This document shows positions 1,726 through 62,530 of a stretch of 64,000 bases of DNA, piece by piece. A model generated the notes under the pieces. It ran no database searches. It was not told where the DNA came from and saw only the letters and a list, made by a program, of their open reading frames with translations. Origin of the DNA: Octopus sinensis (taxonomy: Eukaryota); the NCBI RefSeq assembly GCF_006345805.1, contig NC_043002.1, positions 65,782,001-65,846,000 of the forward strand. Direction: 5' to 3'. The translations under genes were made by a program, and so were the position numbers. Positions within the stretch are counted from its first letter, which is position 1. Each line of letters starts with the position of its first letter.

Positions 1726-2238
1726 GTACGTTTTTAAGACTTATAATAAATAATGTTGTGTATGAGGTGGTCGAAATTTTAGTCTGTCGACTGTAAATCT
1801 ATTTATAAGTGTTTTACTTTCTCATGTTTGAGGATATGTGTGTATGAGTGTGCGTGTACAAGGAAAATATGTAAATGTTTCACCTGTGATTATTATTACC
1901 TTATTTATATACAAAATACTACAATTAACTTTCATTTTTGACGGTACAGGGTCAGCTAGTATACACTTTTACTTGAAAATCCGCGAAGTAGAAACAGTAC
2001 AGTACTATTTTACTCTTTTACTTGTTTCAGTCATTTGACTGCGGCCATGCTGGAGCACCACCTTTAGTCAAGCAAATCGATCTCAAAATTTATTCTTTGT
2101 AAGCCTAGTACTTATTCTATCGGTCTCTTTTGCCGAACCGCTAAGTTACGGGGACGTAAACACACCAGCATCAGTTGTCAAGCGATGTTGGGGGCTACAA
2201 ACACAGACACACAAACATACACACACGCACACACACAT

Positions 2239-2293
<55 letters not shown>

Positions 2294-2315
2294 ATAATAT
2301 ATATATATAATATAT

Positions 2316-2756
2316 ATATTATATTATATTAAATTAGAGACAAAACCACTATTAGGCAAATCAAACAATGAAAGACTTAAGCCAATACATAAATTAATTT
2401 GTATTATTTAAATATGTAACAATTATTAAAAAAATATAATTAATATCCACTACGATTGTTTAAAACTCGCCAAGAAAAATTTTGAAACACCTGATGAATG
2501 ACTGCGACCTAAAAATTTGATGACAGCAGCCAGGAAACGATCGTTGTGGATATTAATTATATTTTTTTAATAATTGTTACATATTTAAATAATATAAATT
2601 AATTTATGTATTGGCTTAAGTCTTTCATTGTTTGATTTGCCTAATAGTGGTTTTGTCTCTAATTTAATATAATATAATATTTTACTATAAAATTGGATTC
2701 AATCCTAAATCTGATTTTTCCCTGTAAGTTTGGATTTATTCCCTAATATTTATTAT

Positions 2757-2757
<1 letters not shown>
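2316..2757 (+). mobile_element. Penelope-like pLTR-derived element with ~146-bp inverted arms, inserted in (TA)n
   Basis: Arms 2316-2461 and 2535-2680 are near-perfect reverse complements; the spacer holds a hammerhead core; (TA)n on both sides. Confidence 0.7.
2488..2548 (+). ncRNA. Minimal type I hammerhead ribozyme motif (PLE-type)
   Basis: cac-CTGATGA(2491-2497)-stem II tgactgc/gcagcca-g-GAAA(2534-2537)-palindromic ACGATCGT-t-gtg. Confidence 0.65.
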
Positions 2758-2802
<45 letters not shown>

Positions 2803-4699: not shown

Positions 4700-4870
4700 T
4701 CTAAAAGTACCTTAGGAATGAGAACCAGGTTCGAAATTTCCCCCAAGACACCTGATGAAGGCTGGAGGGTATATCAGCCGAAACTTTGTGTTAACAACGA
4801 ACAAAATGAGGACAAATATCCGTCAAATGTAAATAATGTACATAATTCCTCATTTCTTAAATATAGAACT
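4700..4870 (+). mobile_element. ~170-bp hammerhead-containing PLE-like element between (AGA)n and (TTA)n tracts
   Basis: Clearly homologous to the reverse complement of 39095-39247; contains gacac-CTGATGA-a-ggctg..cagcc-GAAAC-ttt-gtgtt. Confidence 0.7.
4747..4792 (+). ncRNA. Minimal hammerhead ribozyme motif (stem III palindrome mutated)
   Basis: Stem I gacac/gtgtt, core CTGATGA 4752-4758, perfect stem II ggctg/cagcc, GAAA 4780-4783; reads GAAACTT where the sister copy has GAAACGTT. Confidence 0.65.
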
Positions 4871-9614: not shown

Positions 9615-11600
9615 CTAGCTGAAGGTGACCCGCTCTACGCGCGGGTAAGAGTGTGGTTGTTACTTTCTGTTGCTTCCTTTCAGTAAGAGTGTGGTTGTTA
9701 CTTTCTGTTGCTTCCATTTATAAACAACAGAAGATCTTGAGTAAGTTGAGAAATAAAATATTTAGAAAGATCAATCATAAATATCAGGCAGTGGCAACGG
9801 AAAGGTCTGCTTCAAGGCAGACAGCAAAACGCTAACATTTAAAAGGGACAGACGAACTTGCGAGCTGAATAAAATAATAAAATATTGGAAACCAAAGTTT
9901 GAAGGGATAGAATCTGAGGATAGTAGAGTCACCATGGCTGGCATTTCTTAACGACGGACAGCAACGTATTGACAGTTTAACGGCTGGCGTAAAATTTTGA
10001 ACTTGATGTAAAAGAAAATTCGTAAACACCAAGTTTTGAAGTGATTCTTTCTCACGACAGTAGACTCACCATGGTAAGCATTCAAAATTTCTTTATCATG
10101 GACGGCAACACATTGACGATTAAAAGGCTGGTGCAAAATTTTTAGCTTGATGTAACAGAGAATTCCTAAACACCCGCTCCTTGAAATTTTAATCCCCTTC
10201 CAGCCCCATTTAGACCCCTTTTCACATTTTGGTTAATATAACCCGAATTCATTCGGGTCTACTGGGGCCACATTTTATAAGATGAGGAATTTTGTCCTAG
10301 AGGTGACGCCTTTCATTTGAGGAAAAATATAGTTGTCATGCAAACTTGCCAGCACTTTTAACATAGGTGTGCATATTTTCAGCTGAATCGACCGACTACG
10401 TAATGCACACATTATATATATATATATTTATGTATATATATGTGTGTGTGTGTGTGTGCACGCATTATATATACAAATGTATACAAATGAGATATATATC
10501 TGTATAAATTAAATTAGAGATAAAACCACTAATAGGCAAATCAAACAGTGAAAAACCAAAAACAAAAACATTAAAAAAATATAATATAGAAAATATATCT
10601 TTATATATAAAAGTAAGGTTGTGTGTCTGTCTCCTACGATTTAGATTCCTAACTACTCCCACATTTTGCGGTGCAGTTTAATCAAAACCGGGTATCTTAT
10701 AGTCGTGATTCATATCGAGCCCTTCTGGGTATTAGCGCGCGTCTACGATGAGTCTACGATTTTAAAAATAATTTACCATCATTTTTTCCATTTTAATGCA
10801 TTTTTTCGCTATTATATAAGGGAAGTAACTCTCTAAAAATGTCTACGATGAGTCAACGATTTTAAAATGCATTTTTTTGCTATTTTTTGGCTATAACTCT
10901 CTAAAAATGCTTATATAGTTATTTCCCTTACAAACCCGAGCGACACCGGGCGATACTGCTAGTAAAATATAAAATTGAAAAATTTAAATTATTTAAATTG
11001 AAAATAAAAATTATTAAATTATATTTATAATTTGTTTAAAAATATATATAACTATAAAAAAGTATGAAAAAGTTTAATATACATAAATACAGATATATAC
11101 ACTTTGTATATATACATTATATATACATATTTATTTATAGAACACACACACACACACACACACACATACATTATATATACATATTTATATATAGAACACA
11201 CACACATAAATGAACGCAAGAATATCTGATTCATAATATTTGTTCTCATGCTCGTGTGTTGTTGGTGACAGACAGATACATAAAAGAACGCCGAAGTGAT
11301 GGGAAGGTAGGAAACAGAGTCAGTGAAAAATAGAGGAAATGGCGAGAGTGACAGATACATTAAATAAGGGGAGTGGAACTGTCAAAGTTATAACTGAAGG
11401 GAAGTGAGAGGGTAATGGAGGAAATAGCGTGAGTGAGGAAGATGGCCCCTAGCAACCACACCTTTTAAGATAGGGATTTCTAAGGTAGCCCACGGGCATC
11501 GTCACCTCATTCTACATGTCCCTGTAAAATATGGACGGGATGTAGTGGCATTGAAAGCGATCCAAGCGATAAAAACGCATTTCAGTTTTATATAGAGAGA
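9615..11600 (-). mobile_element. Probable non-autonomous Helitron (second family) with nested insertions
   Basis: Minus-strand 3' end ACCCGCGCGTAGAGCGGGT-9nt-CTAG|T at 9615-9646; minus-strand 5' end A|TCTCTCTATATAAAACTG at 11600; pairing of the two ends is inferred. Confidence 0.55.
10598..10962 (+). mobile_element. Non-autonomous Helitron (same family as 5253-5742)
   Basis: A|TC...CCCGAGCGACACCGGG...CTAG|T; body similar to the 5253 copy. Confidence 0.85.
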
Positions 11601-20710: not shown

Positions 20711-21125
20711 AAAGGCGGCGAGCTGGCAGAATCGTTAACACGCCGGGCGAAATGCATAGCGGTATTTCGTCTGCCGTTACGTTCTGAGTTCAAATTCCGC
20801 CCAGGTCGACTTTGCCTTTCATCCTTTCGGGGTCGATAAATTAAGTACCAGTTACGCTCTGGGGTCGATGTAATCGACTTAATCCGTTTGTCTGTCCTTG
20901 TTTGTCCCCTCTATGTTTAGCCCCTTGTGGGTAATAAAGAAACGGGTATTTCGTCTGCCGTTACGTTCTGAGTTCAAATCTCGCCGAGGTCGACTTTGCT
21001 TTTCATCCTTTCGGGATCGATAAACTAAGTACCAGTTGCGCACTGGGGTGGATGTAATCGACTTAATCCGTTTGTCTGTCCTTGTTTGTCCCCTCTGTGT
21101 TTAGCCCCTTGTGGGTAGTAAAGAA
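20711..21125 (+). mobile_element. SINE family A dimer with ~20-bp TSD
   Basis: TSD AACTATATATGCGTGTGCGT at 20691-20710 and 21126-21145. Confidence 0.9.
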
Positions 21126-21588
21126 AACTATATATGCGTGTGCGTGTGTGCGTGTGTGCGTACGTGCGTGTGTCTGTGTCTGTGTGTGTGTGCAGCCATA
21201 TTTAAACACATACATACTAATACGAAGAAAGAACAAATAATAAGGCAGAAAAAGAAGACATAAATCAAATAAAGAATACAATAGAGAGAGAAAACAGAGC
21301 ATTCGTCATTACTTAGTTATTGCATTTGCTGCCATCTTCAAGTTTTGTCGAATTTTCTGGAATTGTTTTAGTTCATTTTTTGTTTCTTAGTCCAATACAT
21401 ATTTCCATTGTGTGTGAATATTGCTTGTGCAATCACGGCTAGTGGACTGGCAAAGGTCTTGTTTAACTAACTGAGTAAATTCGGACGGCAGAAACAGGAA
21501 TGACAGAACAAAAGAAAATATAAAATGGGGTCAGGAAAATAGAAGAGATTTAGGGTCTGACGACATGAGAAATATACGAGGCATGCAA

Positions 21589-23192: not shown

Positions 23193-23990
23193 AGGAGGCG
23201 AGCTGGTTGAAACGTTAGCACGCCGGGCGAAATGCGTAGCAGTATTTCGTCTGCCGTTACGTTCTGAGTTCAAATTCCGCCGAGGTCGACTTTGCCTTTC
23301 ATCCTTTCGGGGCAGATAAATTAAGTACCAGTTACGCACTGAGGTCGATATAATCGACTTAATCCGTCTGTCCTCGTTTGTCTCCTCTGTATCTAGCCCC
23401 TTGTGGGTAGTAAAGAAATAGGTATTTCGTCTGTCATTATGTTCTGAGTTTAAATTCCGCCGAGGTCAACTTTGCCTTTCAGCCTTTCGGTGTCGATTAA
23501 ATAAGTACCCGTTACGCGCTGGGGGTCGATATAATCGACTTAATCCGTTTATCTGTTCTTCTTTGTCCCCTCTCTGTGTAGCCGCTTGTGGGCAGTAAAG
23601 AAATAAGAAACGTTAGCACGCCGGGCGAAATGCTTAGCGGTATTTCGTCTGCCGCTACGTTCTGAGTTCAAATTCCGCCGAGGTCGACTTTGCCTTTCAT
23701 CCTTTCGGGGTCGATTAAATAAGTATCAGTTACATACTGGGGGTCGATATAATCGACTCAATCCGTTTGTCTGTCCTTGTTTGTCCGCTCTGTGTTTAGA
23801 CCCTTGTGGGTAATAAAGAAATAGGTATTTCGTCTGCCGTTCGTTCTGAGTTCAAATTCCGCCGAGGTCGACTTTGCCTTTCATCCTCTCGAGGTCGATA
23901 AATTAAGTACCACTTGCGTACTGGAGTCGATCTAATTGACTGGCCCCTCTCCAAAAAATGTTGGGCATTGTGCCTAGAGTAGAAAAGAAC
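23193..23990 (+). mobile_element. SINE family A tetramer
   Basis: Four head-to-tail bodies with junctions aaagaaata|ggtatttcg and aaagaaata|agaaacgttagc. Confidence 0.9.
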
Positions 23991-26334: not shown

Positions 26335-26950
26335 TAAGGTAGCGAGGTTTACACGCCGGGCGAAATGCTAGGCGATATTTCGTCTGTCTTTACGTTCTGG
26401 GTTCAAATTCCGCCAAGGTTAATTTTGTCTTATGTCGTTTCTGGGTCGATAAATTAAGCACCAGTTGCGTACTGGGGTCGATCTAATCGACTGGCCCCCT
26501 CATCTAAAATTTGGGGCCTTATGCCTAGAGTAGCAAAGAAAAAGAATCGTTAACACGCCCGATGAAGTGCTTAGAGATATTTCGTCTGTCTTTACGTTCT
26601 GAGTTCAAATTCCGCCGATGTCGGCTTTGCCTTTTATCGTTTCTCTGTCGATAAATTAAGTACCAATTGTGTACTGGGGGTCGATCTAATCGATGCCTCC
26701 CTCCCCCAAAATTTTGGGCCTTGTGCCTTGATTAGAAAAGAAAAAGAGTCGTTAACACGCCGGACAAAGTGTTTAGAGATATTTCGTCCGTCTTTATGTT
26801 CTGAGTTCAAATTCCGCCGATGTCGGCTTTACCTTTTATCGTTTCTGGGTCGATAAAATAAGTACCAGTTGAGTACTGCGATCGATGTATTCGTCTCACC
26901 CAACCCCTGACCCGAAATTGCTGGCCTTGTACCAAAATTTGAAACCATTA
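26335..26950 (+). mobile_element. Tandem trimer of SINE family A (tail-2 type)
   Basis: Three ~200-bp diverged units. Confidence 0.8.
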
Positions 26951-30809: not shown

Positions 30810-31322
30810 TGAGCAACTGGTACTGAATGTATCGATGCCGAAAGGATAAAAGGCAAAGTCGACCTTGGCGGAATTTGAACTCAGAACGTAAAGACAGACA
30901 AAATACCTATTTCTTTACTACCCACAAGGGGCTAAACATAGAGTGGACAAACAAGGACAGACAAACGGATTAAGTCGATTACATCGACCCCAGTGCGTAA
31001 CTGGTACTTAATTTATCGACCCCGAAAGGATGAAGGGCAAAGTCGACCTCGGCAGAATTTGAACTCAGAACGTAGCGGCAGACGAAATACCTATTTCTTT
31101 ATTACCCACAAGGGGATAAACATAGAGGAGACAAACATGGACAGACATAGGTATTAAGTCGATTATATCGACCCCAGTGCTTAACTGGTACTTAATTTAT
31201 CGACCCCGAAAGGATGAAAGGCAAAGTCGACCTCGGCGGAATTTGAACTCACAACGTAACGGCAGACTAAATACCGCTAAGCATTTCGCCCAGCGTGATA
31301 ACGTTTCTACCAGCTCACCGCT
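30810..31322 (-). mobile_element. SINE family A trimer
   Basis: Reverse complement of the family A body x3, head at ~31280-31322. Confidence 0.85.
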
Positions 31323-36620: not shown

Positions 36621-37641
36621 TGTTGTAGGAAACTGGTCCTAATGTTTTAAGTTTCAAATTTAGTTAATAGAGTCTCTTCTACAAGAAAAATTATTTTATT
36701 TATTTTTTAAATATTGTTTAACTCTATTTGCTTATTTATTTAACTATTATTGTTAACCTGAAGATTGACTATAATTTTAAATTGAATTCATTTCAATTAA
36801 ATTTAAATGTAATTGTAATTCGAATTTAATTGTAGCCATGAAGCGTACGTAGTTTTTTTTTACTTATTATATATTGATTATTCATTTTTATACTTTCTGA
36901 GATCTAGTTATATGTTTTATAAAATATCTTTTATTTGTTATTTATGCTTTGGTTTATGTCTATCACGGTTTGAGTTGCATAATAGTGGTTTTATCTGTAA
37001 TTTATATATTATATATGTATGTGCGTGTGTGTGTATGTGTGTGTAATGAAAGTAAACAAATAAAGTTTGCTTTAGAAGCGTTGAGATGTATTGAAAGATA
37101 CAGAAATAATTTATTCTCAAATGCATGATATTGCTAATACAATAGCATGAACAGGATAAATTATCCATATTGTGCAGAAAAAAATTGTTACTGGACAGCC
37201 ATGAGACTCGAACTCATATCCCTGTAATTATATATATATATAGATGCGTATATGTGTGCATGTGTGTATGTATGTATGTATGTATGTATGTATGTATGTA
37301 TGTATGCATGTATGTATATGCGTGAGTACTACGCATGTGTGCGAGATTGAAAGGGAGAGCGGAAGAGGGAGACAGAGAAACAAAGATAAAAGTCAGAGGT
37401 AGATGTTGACTGTTTGGTTGATGAGTAAAAAGGAATGGCTAGCATAATTACCTTAGACAAGTATCTTCATTCATATGACACTGGTTTGTTTGGTCTTGAT
37501 ACAAAGTTATTTCTCGGTGACATAGGACTTGACAAAACACACATTCCTTTGGCAATTTATTCGATATTCACGAATGAAGTTTGTTCAGCTGCTTCTTGTT
37601 ATGCACAGCACACACTTAGCGCGCGTGTGTTTATGCATGTA

Positions 37642-39094: not shown

Positions 39095-39247
39095 TTAGTA
39101 CATTATTTACATTATTTACATTTGACGGTTATTTGTCCTCATCTTGTTTGTTGTTAATACAACGTTTCGGCTGATATACCCACCAGCCTTCATCAGGTGT
39201 TTTGTGGAAATTTCGAACTTGATTCTCATTCGTAAGGTATTTTTCGA
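39095..39247 (-). mobile_element. Hammerhead-containing PLE-like element (same family as 4700-4870)
   Basis: Reverse complement matches 4700-4845; abuts (TTA/TTG)n. Confidence 0.7.
39156..39201 (-). ncRNA. Minimal hammerhead ribozyme motif, intact core
   Basis: aacac-CTGATGA-a-ggctg-gtgggtatat-cagcc-GAAACGT-t-gtatt. Confidence 0.7.
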
Positions 39248-41561: not shown

Positions 41562-41570
<9 letters not shown>

Positions 41571-42004
41571 AGGGAAATGAATTGATGTTAATTTAATTAA
41601 TATCAATTTAAAACCAGTAGCCTAGCATATAAAAATCTGAAAAATCAGAAAAATGTCAATACATGTGTATATTTAGGGCTAAAACCACTAGGTGGATAAC
41701 CATATGCTTGAAGATCACATAGATCTAACTACAAAGAAAGAATGTTCTCCGGAAATTATATTGAATTTGGAACGATCGTACTGACGAGCCTGCGGACGAA
41801 GGATTACGTAAGTTCGGCAATAGACGGAATCGGTATACGATTAATTCTTGATTTTTATATAATTTTCATCTGTCGTGCCCGCCTATGTTCTTGTGTTCGC
41901 TGAATTTTCTCTGGAGAACATTCTTTCTTTGTAATTAGATCGTATGTGATCTTCTTCTAGCATATGGTTATCCACCTAGTGGTTTTAGCCCTAAATATAC
42001 ACAT
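41562..42004. mobile_element. PLE-like palindromic element in (TA)n with hammerhead-like spacer
   Basis: Inverted arms 41663-41750 / 41913-42004; shares the aaaaccacta motif with the 2316 arm. Confidence 0.65.
41775..41841 (+). ncRNA. Degenerate minimal hammerhead ribozyme motif
   Basis: Perfect 6-bp stem I atcgta/tacgat around CTGACGA...GGAA-tcgg-TA (GAAA mutated to GGAA). Confidence 0.55.
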
Positions 42005-42153
42005 ATATATATTTCCATTACCAGTGACCTAGCGTGTAAAAATTTAGTCAAATACTATATATTATTCATATAAATACAGTGTACATTTAAACACATGAGA
42101 GGTATCCATCATAGGATTCCTTGCACGTTAGAGAGGGCAGTTAAATTCCAAAC

Positions 42154-42200
<47 letters not shown>

Positions 42201-51094: not shown

Positions 51095-51700
51095 AAGCTG
51101 GCAGAACTGTTAGCACTCCGGCGAGCTGGCTGAAACGTTTGCACGCCGGGCGAAATGCTTAGCGGAATTTCGTCCGCTGTTACGTTCTGAGTTCAAATTC
51201 CACCGACGTCGACTTTGCCTTTCATCCATTTGGGGTCGATTAAATAAGTACCAGTTACGCACTGGGGTTGATGTAATCGGCTTAATCCGTGTGTCTGTCC
51301 TTGTTTGTCCCCTCTGTGTTCAGCCCCTTGTGGGAAGTAAAGAAATAGGCATTTCGTCTGCGGCTACGTTCTGAGTTCAAATTCCGCCGAGGTCGACTTT
51401 GCCTTTCATCCTTTCAGGGTCGATTAAATAAGTACCAGTTACGCACTGGGGTCGATATAATCGGCTTAATCCGTTTGTCTGTCCTTGTTTGTCCCTTCTG
51501 TGTGTAGCCCCTTGTGAGCAGTAAAGAAATAAGAACTGTTAGCACTCCGGACGAAATGCCGCTAAGTATTTAGTTCTGAGTTCAAACGCCGCTGGGGTCT
51601 ACTTTGCTTTTCATCCTTTCGGAATTGATAAAATAAGTACCAGTTGTGTGATGGAGTCGATATTATTGGCTTACTCGCACTTCTTACCCTGGTACCAAAG
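51095..51700 (+). mobile_element. SINE A dimer (51120-51531) inserted inside the head of an older SINE A
   Basis: TSD AGAACTGTTAGCACTCC at 51103-51119 and 51532-51548. Confidence 0.85.
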
Positions 51701-58287: not shown

Positions 58288-58869
58288 TATTTTTCTACTC
58301 TAGGCACACGGCCCGAAATCGTGGGGGAGGGGCCACTCGATTAGATCAACCCCAGTACGCAACTGGTACTTAATTTGTCGACCCTGAAAGGATGAAAGGC
58401 AAAGTCGACCTCGGTGGAATTTGAACTCAGAACGTAAAAACAAACGAAATACTTATTTCTTTATTGCCCACAAGGGGCTAAACATAGAGGGAACAAACAA
58501 GTACAGGCAAATGGATTAAGTCGATTACATCGATCCCAGTACGTCACTGGTACTTAATTTATTGACCCCGAAAGGATGAAAGGTAAAGTCGACCTCGGCG
58601 AAATTTGAACTCAGAACGCAGCGGCAGATGAAATACCTATTTCTTTACTACCCACAAGGGGCTACACACAGAGAGGACAAACAAGGCAGACAAACGGATT
58701 AAGTCGATTATATCGACCCCGGTGCGTAACTGGTACTTATTTAATCGACCCCGAAAGGATGAAAGGCAAAGTCGGCATCGGCGGAATCTGAACTCAGAAC
58801 GTAGCGGCAGACGAAATACCGCTAAGCATTTTGCCTGGCGTGCTAACGTTTCTGCCAGCTCGCCGCCTT
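58288..58869 (-). mobile_element. SINE family A trimer
   Basis: Reverse-complement bodies x3, head at ~58820-58869. Confidence 0.88.
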
Positions 58870-62016: not shown

Positions 62017-62530
62017 CTATATAATTACTATATATATATATATATATTAATTAATAAGGGTGAGAGAATTAGATACTAATTTAATAGTATATTTATTCAA
62101 CACCAAGTGGCCTATAGTGCTACGAGAACCTGGATTATTATAATATTTTATAACATATTATAATATTTTTACAAATAAATATAAGAGAGTGGTCACTATA
62201 TTGCTCACTCTAGCACCAGTTAATCCAAAAGGTGTAAACCACGAAAATACATGTTTCCCATGAAAGCCAGTACGATGTTAGCTCACACGGAACAGGGCAA
62301 ATAGAAAAATAACAAAATACAGATTATTTGGAAAATGGTTTCGCTAGTAACTGAATTAAATGTAATAGTACTTAAAAAAATCCACTTGTAAGATCGTCAG
62401 CCAAGACTATCTGTATGAATCCAACTCAATCACACGCCAGATTACCATAACGATAAATACGCGTGTGGTTCAATGATTACATCCGACGTTATATATATAT
62501 ATACCAATATATATATATATATATATATAT

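What the first reader, a model, noticed from the sequence alone, without database searches (positions are those of the whole stretch)
2316..2757. Palindromic, (TA)n-embedded element with a hammerhead ribozyme in its loop
Seen: ~146-bp near-perfect inverted arms (about 3 mismatches). The spacer reads stem I-CUGAUGA-stem II-GAAA-ACGAUCGU(palindrome)-H-stem I'. The left arm ends exactly at the complement of (G)AAAC and preserves GUA at the cleavage triplet, whereas the right arm has GUU. Known: Penelope-like retroelements carry minimal type I hammerheads with a palindromic stem III that work as dimers, and they often have inverted pseudo-LTRs. Inference: this is a non-autonomous PLE- or retrozyme-like family in octopus that prefers TA microsatellites. 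Related ends occur at ~10505-10597, 41562 and 62050.
Basis: partly seen in the sequence, partly recalled or inferred. Interest (0 to 1): 0.8.

Follow-up and report, generated by a model that had tools for sequence, protein, structure and literature searches.

The report
Spliced Penelope retrocopy with hammerhead hairpin
This hairpin is an intron-less piece of a Penelope-like retrotransposon; its family has over a hundred exactly spliced copies beside intron-keeping ones, which likely shows that these elements do copy spliced RNA, likely priming twice on one RNA, and that only the unspliced copies would stay fertile.

Summary
The hairpin and hammerhead motif are real. The palindrome is not itself the mobile unit. 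It is the terminal repeat (pLTR) of a Hydra-type Penelope-like retrotransposon: its 76-nt tail runs into an RT + GIY-YIG ORF elsewhere in the genome.

- Splicing: the window copy lacks exactly a 704-nt GT-AG intron. The genome has 125 such junctions, 26 unspliced donors and 36 matches to a second splice form.
- Start site: 105 of 105 spliced junctions stop within 46 nt upstream; 23 of 26 unspliced ones run past. This points to a transcription start.
- Arms: 63 of 67 two-armed insertions carry exactly one tail, on either arm, and 24 of 24 arm pairs share splice state. This fits two primings on one sense RNA.
- Ribozyme: 6 of 100 copies begin exactly at the predicted cut, 0.44 expected.

Best reading: a dead-end cDNA of the spliced mRNA leader. 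Promoter position, cleavage and twin priming are inferred, not assayed. The element type is known; the family-level evidence bears on why Penelope elements keep introns.

The parts
2237..2315 (.). (TA)n target, left part; it lies between two interspersed-repeat segments (SINE-like by recall)
2316..2461 (-). Left (inverted) arm: reverse copy of 2535-2680. It starts at the fixed pLTR end, has no tail, and keeps the family GUA
2455..2461 (+). Junction overlap: first 7 nt of the forward unit, matching the arm's continuation at 6 of 7 letters
   Evidence: same junction in L027
2455..2478 (+). Last 24 nt of the short first exon (inferred main start 29 nt before the donor)
   Evidence: identical to L032 1519-1542; start inferred
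2478..2479 (+). Exact splice junction; the 704-nt GT-AG intron of L032 (1543-2246) is absent
   Evidence: joint 'skips 704, GT..AG' in contigs of runs X8 and X2
2487..2549 (+). Type I hammerhead motif: 3-bp stem I, CUGAUGA, long imperfect stem II, GAAA, palindromic stem III ACGAUCGU, triplet GUU (family GUA); predicted cut between 2545 and 2546
2550..2680 (+). Rest of the pLTR; 2680 is fixed 3' end no. 1 (inferred RT start site)
   Evidence: 44 of 103 forward ends at this exact position
2681..2757 (+). 76-77-nt tail, equal to the first bases of the element body upstream of the ORF; 2756-2757 is fixed 3' end no. 2 (inferred second RT start site)
   Evidence: 35 of 103 forward ends; tail runs into the ORF
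2758..2801 (.). (TA)n target, right part

Best explanation
The hairpin is an intron-less, ORF-less copy of the terminal repeat of a Hydra-type Penelope-like retrotransposon, likely a dead-end cDNA of the spliced 5' leader of its mRNA, likely made by two primings on one sense RNA at a cut (TA)n target.

SHOWN. The parent is about 4.9 kb: tail, 5' UTR, RT-CxCX5C-GIY-YIG ORF, 3' region, intron, hammerhead, pLTR end, tail. It has one acceptor 11-13 nt before the hammerhead core and two donors: a proximal one (about 700-nt intron) and a distal one about 200 nt after the ORF (about 1.75-kb intron). Genomic copies occur unspliced, proximally spliced and distally spliced.

INFERRED. (1) Transcription starts about 29 nt (at most about 46) before the proximal donor. 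(2) The RT starts inside the RNA at two fixed sites 76 nt apart. (3) One target strand primes at each site, both copy the same RNA toward its 5' end, and the two cDNAs join head to head, often by microhomology. (4) On a proximally spliced mRNA this yields only a short leader copy like this one. Distal splicing deletes the start site. So only unspliced RNA would give progeny able to transcribe an ORF, and intron 'retention' would be a survivor effect. (5) The family hammerhead likely cuts a minority of template RNAs in vivo. This copy likely does not, because its 3' half is paired into the 146-bp stem.
For: ORF linkage: (L179 full unit; L048 762-aa open frame). Atlas neighbours carry RVT_1/HTH_animal; 19 homologues at E<=1e-20.

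Splicing: exact GT-AG loss with no shared letters at the joint. 125 spliced junctions, 26 unspliced donors, 135 intron-end+HHR sites (sister subfamily included) and 36 distal-form matches, all with 0 in the reversed controls. Of 30 distal-form loci fetched, 29 are family hammerheads.

5' wall: 105 of 105 spliced junction contexts reach <=46 nt upstream; 23 of 26 unspliced donors reach >=56 nt. A G instead of the templated T precedes the -29 A in 11 of 27 spliced and 0 of 23 unspliced copies, p=4e-4.

Two fixed 3' ends. One tail in 63 of 67 two-armed insertions, both in 1, none in 3; about 16 with both expected if independent, p=5e-15. The junction-crossing arm has the tail in 30 rows and lacks it in 24, so neither arm can always be a copy of the other. 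Splice state agrees in 24 of 24 head-to-head pairs (11 unspliced, 8 proximal, 5 distal).

27 of 27 ORF-start copies whose upstream pLTR crosses the acceptor keep intron sequence (40 loci examined, read by eye). Cut-site pile-up: 6 of 100 copies, 0.44 expected, P=6e-6.

Agreement with papers: two adjacent internal RT starts defining the tail and extension of both strands in vitro (PMC11167929); intron 46 bp after the start site in D. virilis (PMC2377424).
Against: No RNA evidence: no listed run is on record as RNA and only contigs could be laid. Start site, promoter and cap are inferred from genomic ends alone.

By my reading only 5 of the 11 G cases cannot be explained by the adjoining arm, and ends spread from -11 to -46.

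Pfam and the PDB gave no RT or GIY-YIG hit; Rfam gave no hammerhead. Covariation is weak: 2 pairs with two-sided changes, one of which could be CpG decay. Isolated motifs do not fold as hammerheads (z -0.9 to +0.8).

Arm-to-arm similarity is only modestly above between-locus similarity (median difference 2.7% vs 6.4%; own partner closest in 11 of 26), and the diagnostic-site test was uninformative. In two loci (L019, L030) one arm ends at the cut while the other crosses it. One of the 6 cut-site ends could be TG microhomology (5 left: P=8e-5).

In D. virilis an intron-less construct was still transcribed, so 'promoter lost with the intron' need not be general. 26 of the 27 ORF-start copies are sister subfamilies with diverged introns. 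No fully processed copy (spliced leader + ORF) was found, so the link of the spliced leader to the ORF on one RNA is inferred. Samples are the first 100 listed matches or best 40 hits, and exact patterns miss diverged copies. Some duplicates remain (L101-L104, L154).
Confidence: 0.8

Rival explanations
1. Same parent, but the inverted arm comes from self-priming: one cDNA folds back and is copied, or an antisense RNA is the template (the latter proposed in PMC3846280 to explain both head-to-head repeats and intron retention).
For: Small fold-back palindromes occur at some 5' ends (5 of 11 G cases). Concordant splice state is also what copying one arm from the other would give. The head-to-head geometry is what the antisense model set out to explain.
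Against: In 24 rows the junction-crossing arm lacks the tail while its partner has it, and in most of these the tailed partner is the shorter arm. A tail cannot be copied from a tail-less cDNA, nor a long arm from a short one. An antisense template would not be spliced at sense GT-AG sites, yet 125 + about 35 sense-spliced junctions exist.
Confidence: 0.08
2. The intron was lost at DNA level (deletion or cDNA gene conversion) in one or a few short master copies, which then spread as a SINE- or MITE-like non-autonomous family.
For: Spliced junctions outnumber unspliced donors 125 to 26. Short non-autonomous PLE derivatives are described (bioRxiv 10.64898/2026.07.22.740005). A 5' wall would also result from a short master.
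Against: The spliced junction occurs on several exon-2 sequence variants that also exist unspliced, so loss would have to recur. A second exact splice form uses the same acceptor. 5' ends and arms differ at nearly every locus. An untemplated G is confined to spliced copies.
Confidence: 0.07
3. One reading: a palindromic retrozyme-like element whose long hairpin and hammerhead act together as a self-cleaving RNA mobilised as a unit.
For: Very stable hairpin; conserved core in 183 of 188 copies; many two-armed copies.
Against: Arm length and tail side vary. 45 of 103 junction rows have no detected inverted arm. In the predicted fold the left arm pairs with the stem III and stem I' sequence. No tandem HHR arrays were seen.
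Confidence: 0.05

Closest known systems
Hydra clade of Penelope-like elements (Craig et al. 2021, PMC8557442), including Hydra-1_Obim
   Same: RT followed by C-terminal GIY-YIG, DKT motif, CxCX5C linker, CxxC/CxH at the end, (TA)n targets, hammerhead near the 3' end with a variable pair next to the core.
   Different: A different family: the hammerhead sequence differs from Hydra-1_oBim, which is listed as 2507 bp with 'no pLTR'. The unspliced unit here is about 4.9 kb, the tail is 76 nt rather than 30-40, and the RWK motif reads KWK. No intron is mentioned in the Hydra section or table that I read.
Penelope of Drosophila virilis (PMC2377424; PMC4209133)
   Same: Start site in the pLTR, an intron a few dozen nt downstream, intron 3' end next to hammerhead stem I, tail extension, inverted pLTR.
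   Different: Intron 704 nt vs 75. There is a second, distal donor. Spliced forms are present as genomic copies in large numbers; the passages I read describe spliced RNA but only intron-keeping DNA.
Poseidon_Ac of Anolis (Frangieh et al. 2024, PMC11167929)
   Same: Two adjacent internal RT start sites that define the tail, AT-rich targets, both strands cut and extended.
   Different: There the start sites lie in the ORF and no reads began at the hammerhead site. Here they lie before the ORF, each two-armed insertion appears to use one of each, and genomic 5' ends pile up at the cut.
Non-LTR retrozymes (bioRxiv 10.64898/2026.07.22.740005; PMC4209133)
   Same: Short non-coding PLE-derived sequence with a type I hammerhead.
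   Different: Retrozymes are head-to-tail tandem units with a hammerhead in each. This is a single head-to-head insertion that crosses its own cut site.
L1 twin-priming inversions and processed pseudogenes (recalled, not from a call)
   Same: Two target-strand primers on one RNA joined by microhomology; exact intron loss; extra 5' G at capped ends.
   Different: In L1 the two cDNAs cover adjacent parts of the RNA. Here they overlap almost wholly, giving a long inverted duplication, and both start at fixed internal sites rather than at a poly(A) end.

Membership tests
Hydra-clade PLE | [quoted passage not shown] | tested here: met
   YRDD precedes YIGST in one 762-aa frame (L048). Read by motif; Pfam and PDB gave no hit; atlas neighbours carry RVT_1
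Hydra-clade PLE | DKG changed to DKT | tested here: met
   SDKT in L038, L047, L048, L049, L052, L179; SDKS in L042
Hydra-clade PLE | N-terminal RWK motif | tested here: inconclusive
   Reads KWK (RIKWKA) in the copies translated
Hydra-clade PLE | CxCX5C linker; CxxC and CxH at the end of the EN | tested here: met
   CTC-RDKSK-C, CYLC and CRH in L054 and L179
Hydra-clade PLE | Insertion into (TA)n | tested here: met
   TA-rich 3' flank in 92 of 103 rows; left flank in 49 of 58 two-armed rows
Hydra-clade PLE | Hammerhead near the 3' end | tested here: met
Hydra-clade PLE | Generally under 3 kb | tested here: inconclusive
   Unspliced unit about 4.9 kb (L179); the distally spliced form would be about 3.0-3.1 kb
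Hydra-clade PLE | RT tree placement; absence of the CCHH motif | not tested
   No tree with reference Hydra proteins was built
PLE pLTR | Terminal repeat before and after the ORF, optional tail on one end, inverted 5'-truncated copy | tested here: met
   L179, L042, L277
Type I hammerhead of metazoan PLEs | CUGANGA, GAAA, NUH conserved with stems I and II | tested here: met
   Core intact in 183 of 188, GUA in 181 of 188 (anchors exclude very diverged copies); 87.6% of cells paired vs 19-58% when slid
Type I hammerhead of metazoan PLEs | Compensatory changes in stems; palindromic stem III | tested here: inconclusive
   2 pairs with two-sided changes; palindrome kept as ACAAUUGU in a sister subfamily (could be CpG decay) and as ACGUACGU with stem I AAC/GUU in a sister family
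Type I hammerhead of metazoan PLEs | Self-cleavage, as a dimer or with protein help | not testable with these tools
   Indirect only: 6 of 100 genomic 5' ends at the predicted cut
Naiad/Chlamys PLE | N-terminal endonuclease, no canonical hammerhead | tested here: not met
   EN is C-terminal and a hammerhead is present
Non-LTR retrozyme | Head-to-tail tandem units each with a hammerhead | tested here: not met
   Single head-to-head insertion; no array at this locus
MITE / foldback DNA element | Fixed terminal inverted repeats at both ends, constant structure | tested here: not met
   Inner arm ends vary from unit position 1 to 264, one end carries a 76-nt extra tail, and the intron is removed exactly

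The most novel reading that the evidence does not exclude
This family is a fossil record of the whole Penelope cycle. Penelope-like elements copy spliced sense RNA freely, and 'intron retention' is a survivor effect, because the start site sits inside a 3' intron and spliced progeny are sterile. Inverted pLTRs and the one-sided tail come from obligatory paired priming at two fixed sites on one RNA. The hammerhead cuts templates in vivo. Short published Hydra consensuses (<3 kb, some without a pLTR) may themselves be processed forms.
Probability: 0.55. Interest if true: 0.87.

Novelty: new variant of a known kind. Interest (0 to 1): 0.74.

Why it matters
Penelope-like elements are treated as the retroelements that keep their introns. 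The significance is called unknown (PMC8557442 section 15), and an antisense-template, self-priming model was offered for both intron retention and head-to-head repeats (PMC3846280 discussion). Here one family shows exactly spliced sense copies in two forms, a sharp 5' limit, a one-tail-per-insertion rule, matched splice state in both arms, and 5' ends at the ribozyme cut. Each gives a direct prediction for 5' RACE, for the existing in vitro PLE system, and for recounting other PLE-rich genomes. It also warns that consensus sequences of such families can mix processed and unprocessed forms. My ten literature searches showed no report of spliced genomic PLE copies or of twin priming in PLEs. 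The key 2003, 2005, 2006 and 2017 papers were not read, so this is not proof of novelty.

Tried and rejected
- Rfam at E<=10: no hammerhead, only repeat-driven noise.
- Pfam and PDB searches of the ORF: nothing significant.
- The PLE ORF next to L010 is not the partner: different 3' end, 33% protein identity.
- I first took the ORF for a Naiad; rejected on domain order.
- My first idea that ORF-side copies are never spliced was wrong: a distal splice form exists.
- The count of unspliced distal donors is unusable: 271 matches, most of the listed ones in one 38-bp array.
- No RNA holder listed. Laid contigs cannot show starts or strand, so they are used only to show that the spliced joint exists outside this assembly; X8 may be the same sample.
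- Folding of isolated hammerheads and of the tail: no significant z except -2.35 for tail plus 5' UTR.
- The diagnostic-site comparison of arms failed to class one allele.
- An apparent pile-up at the exon 2 start (position 71) is mis-assigned spliced copies. Several values of 104-200 there are TA-run alignment artefacts; neither enters the cut-site test.
- The hammerhead regex missed short-loop variants, so those rows were read by eye.
- Sister family 36640-37012: no intron evidence within the 230 nt read upstream, so generality of splicing beyond this family and its sister subfamilies is not shown.
- Earlier-findings look-ups returned nothing.
- PMC5850863 was not available. Of the Craig supplement I saw 1 of 59 parts plus two searches; unseen parts may describe Hydra introns.

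Full report
OBSERVATION. The 146-nt arms (2316-2461, 2535-2680; 98%) and the 73-nt spacer are as described. Both ends lie in (TA)n. The spacer plus the start of the right arm reads as a type I hammerhead with a predicted cut after 2545. Rfam does not detect it. Of the three arm mismatches, one (2457) belongs to the forward unit's first exon, one (2545) is a private A>T that makes GUU, and one (2401) is private to the left arm.

FAMILY. A search of the own genome with 2462-2757 gave 1362 candidates, of which 40 were scored, at 92-100% identity. Many copies had an inverted partner whose outer end was fixed and whose inner end varied. Across 103 junction rows the forward 3' end fell at two places: window 2680 (44 rows exactly) and 2756-2757 (35 rows); a TA-rich flank followed in 92 rows. 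So the palindrome is a variable product, not the unit.

PARENT. In G000:C11494 the 76-nt tail runs on into a 5' UTR and an ORF with RT and C-terminal GIY-YIG motifs. L179 holds a full unit of about 4.9 kb and L048 an open frame of 762 aa. DKT, CxCX5C, CxxC/CxH, the (TA)n target and the hammerhead match the Hydra clade as described in PMC8557442 section 11; RWK reads KWK and no tree was built. Pfam and PDB gave no hit. Homologues carry PF26215 and atlas neighbours RVT_1. The listed Hydra-1_Obim has a different hammerhead.

SPLICING. Longer copies carry 704 nt, GTATGT...TTTTAG, exactly between window positions 2478 and 2479. The window's exons match L032 at 24 of 24 letters in exon 1, and at all but 2 positions in exon 2 apart from a 4-letter register shift at its end. 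Exact patterns count 125 spliced junctions, 26 unspliced donors and 135 intron-end+hammerhead sites (sister subfamily included), with 0 in each reversed control. The same joint appears in contigs of runs X8 and X2. A second donor about 200 nt after the ORF joins the same acceptor and removes about 1.75 kb, including the first exon and the proximal donor: 36 matches, and 29 of 30 fetched loci are family hammerheads, several running hundreds of bases into the ORF end.

5' LIMIT. All 105 distinct proximal-spliced contexts examined (of 125 matches genome-wide, a few of them duplicates) end within 46 nt upstream of the junction. Of the 26 unspliced donors, 23 run 56 to 450+ nt (22 of 23, plus 1 of the remaining 3). 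At the A 29 nt before the donor, 11 of 27 spliced and 0 of 23 unspliced copies have G instead of T in front (p=4e-4). Five of these cannot be explained by the neighbouring arm. I read this as the capped start of the mRNA; the cap-G signature and the Inr-like look of the site are recalled knowledge. The window copy begins 24 nt before the donor, at a 6-of-7 overlap with its arm. Of 40 ORF-start loci, 27 have an upstream pLTR that crosses the acceptor and all 27 keep intron sequence (26 are sister subfamilies). One further copy has a distally spliced pLTR before its ORF (L278). No proximal-spliced leader joined to an ORF was found.

HOW THE ARMS FORM. Of 67 two-armed insertions, 63 carry one tail, 3 none and 1 two; independence predicts about 16 with two (p=5e-15). 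The junction-crossing arm has the tail in 30 rows and lacks it in 24 (a few insertions are counted from both sides), so neither arm can always be copied from the other. Where both arms cross the acceptor, the splice state agrees in 24 of 24 pairs found from listed coordinates and in 18 of 18 in held loci (overlapping sets). Arms are somewhat closer to each other than to other loci (2.7% vs 6.4%), but only 11 of 26 have their own partner as nearest. The simplest reading is two primers, one per target strand, starting at the two fixed sites on one sense RNA. This matches the two adjacent internal starts and two-strand extension seen in vitro (PMC11167929, parts 1-2 of 4 read). It contradicts, for this family, the antisense self-priming proposal (PMC3846280, passages and discussion read).

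HAMMERHEAD. In 188 distinct copies the CUGANGA core is intact in 183 and the triplet is GUA in 181; GUU occurs once, in the window. Loop II varies from a few to about 30 nt while the stem base is kept. Pairing is 87.6% against 19-58% for slid controls, but two-sided changes are few, and monomers do not fold as hammerheads by energy alone. Among the first 100 of 173 matches to a pattern just downstream of the cut, 6 begin exactly at the cut, against 0.44 expected (P=6e-6; 8e-5 for 5). This suggests cleaved RNA is sometimes the template. Most templates were uncut, and two loci have one arm ending at the cut while the other crosses it. PMC4209133 (parts 1-2 of 4) reports low in vitro activity and an intron end at stem I in D. 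virilis. PMC2377424 (abstract and passages) places that intron 46 bp after the start but found transcription without it, which limits how far the promoter argument generalises.

MECHANISM. Shown: parent structure, three splice states in DNA, the 5' limit, two 3' ends, the one-tail rule, matched splice state, and the pile-up at the cut. Inferred: start site and cap, paired priming on one RNA, sterility of spliced progeny, in vivo cleavage, and inactivity of this copy's ribozyme inside its hairpin.

COMPARISON AND NOVELTY. It works like a Penelope pLTR insertion and meets most Hydra features. It fails the tests for Naiad, retrozyme and MITE (retrozyme preprint: parts 1-3 of 5 read). PLE hammerheads, inverted pLTRs, tails and TA targeting are known (PMC8557442: passages, sections 11 and 15, one supplement part). 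Abundant spliced genomic copies, a second intron that spans the start site, and the one-tail rule did not turn up in ten searches; four key older papers were not read. Verdict: a new variant of a known kind, interest 0.74. The single locus is an ordinary dead insertion, but its family makes an open question directly testable.

Noticed in passing
window 36640-37015 (+): Tail-less copy of a sister family (2178 candidates) with its own hammerhead (stem I AAC/GUU, palindrome ACGUACGU) and the same two 3' ends; splice state unknown.
   Followed up: partly
window 41565-42156: Another TA-flanked element with inverted arms (41659-41753 / 41910-42008) ending in a similar TAGTGGTTTT motif; likely a further PLE family.
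   Followed up: partly
window 62050-62480 (-): TA-flanked element with a degenerate CUGACGA...GAAAC motif on the minus strand; no inverted arms.
   Followed up: partly
window 10505-10556 (-): Short pLTR-end fragment 90% like the finding's arm.
   Followed up: yes
window 4749-4795 (+) and about 39150-39200 (-): A different short repeat with a compact hammerhead motif (CAC-CUGAUGA-A-GGCUG...CAGCC-GAAAC), embedded in trinucleotide repeats; also seen in L034.
   Followed up: no
L031 7346-8539 (-), G000:C3: A second, degraded RT + GIY-YIG PLE (33% identical protein) into which a copy of this family has inserted.
   Followed up: partly
G000:C1:205141113 onward: A 38-bp tandem array built on the element's distal splice donor sequence.
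   Followed up: no
L183 1-4390 (G000:C23): About 29 tandem 151-bp repeats made from a piece of the element's RT coding region, directly upstream of a truncated copy.
   Followed up: no
L038 1599-1800; L048: The ORF has an asparagine/lysine-rich low-complexity stretch between RT and EN, recalling the N-rich inserts described in rotifer Penelopes.
   Followed up: no
L279-L304: Sister subfamilies keep the acceptor next to the hammerhead but have a diverged, longer, TG-rich intron.
   Followed up: partly
window 20761-21126, 23421-23823, 26374-26878, 30815-31275, 51167-51531, 58337-58820: Short tandem arrays of a 184-218-bp repeat at several places in the window.
   Followed up: no
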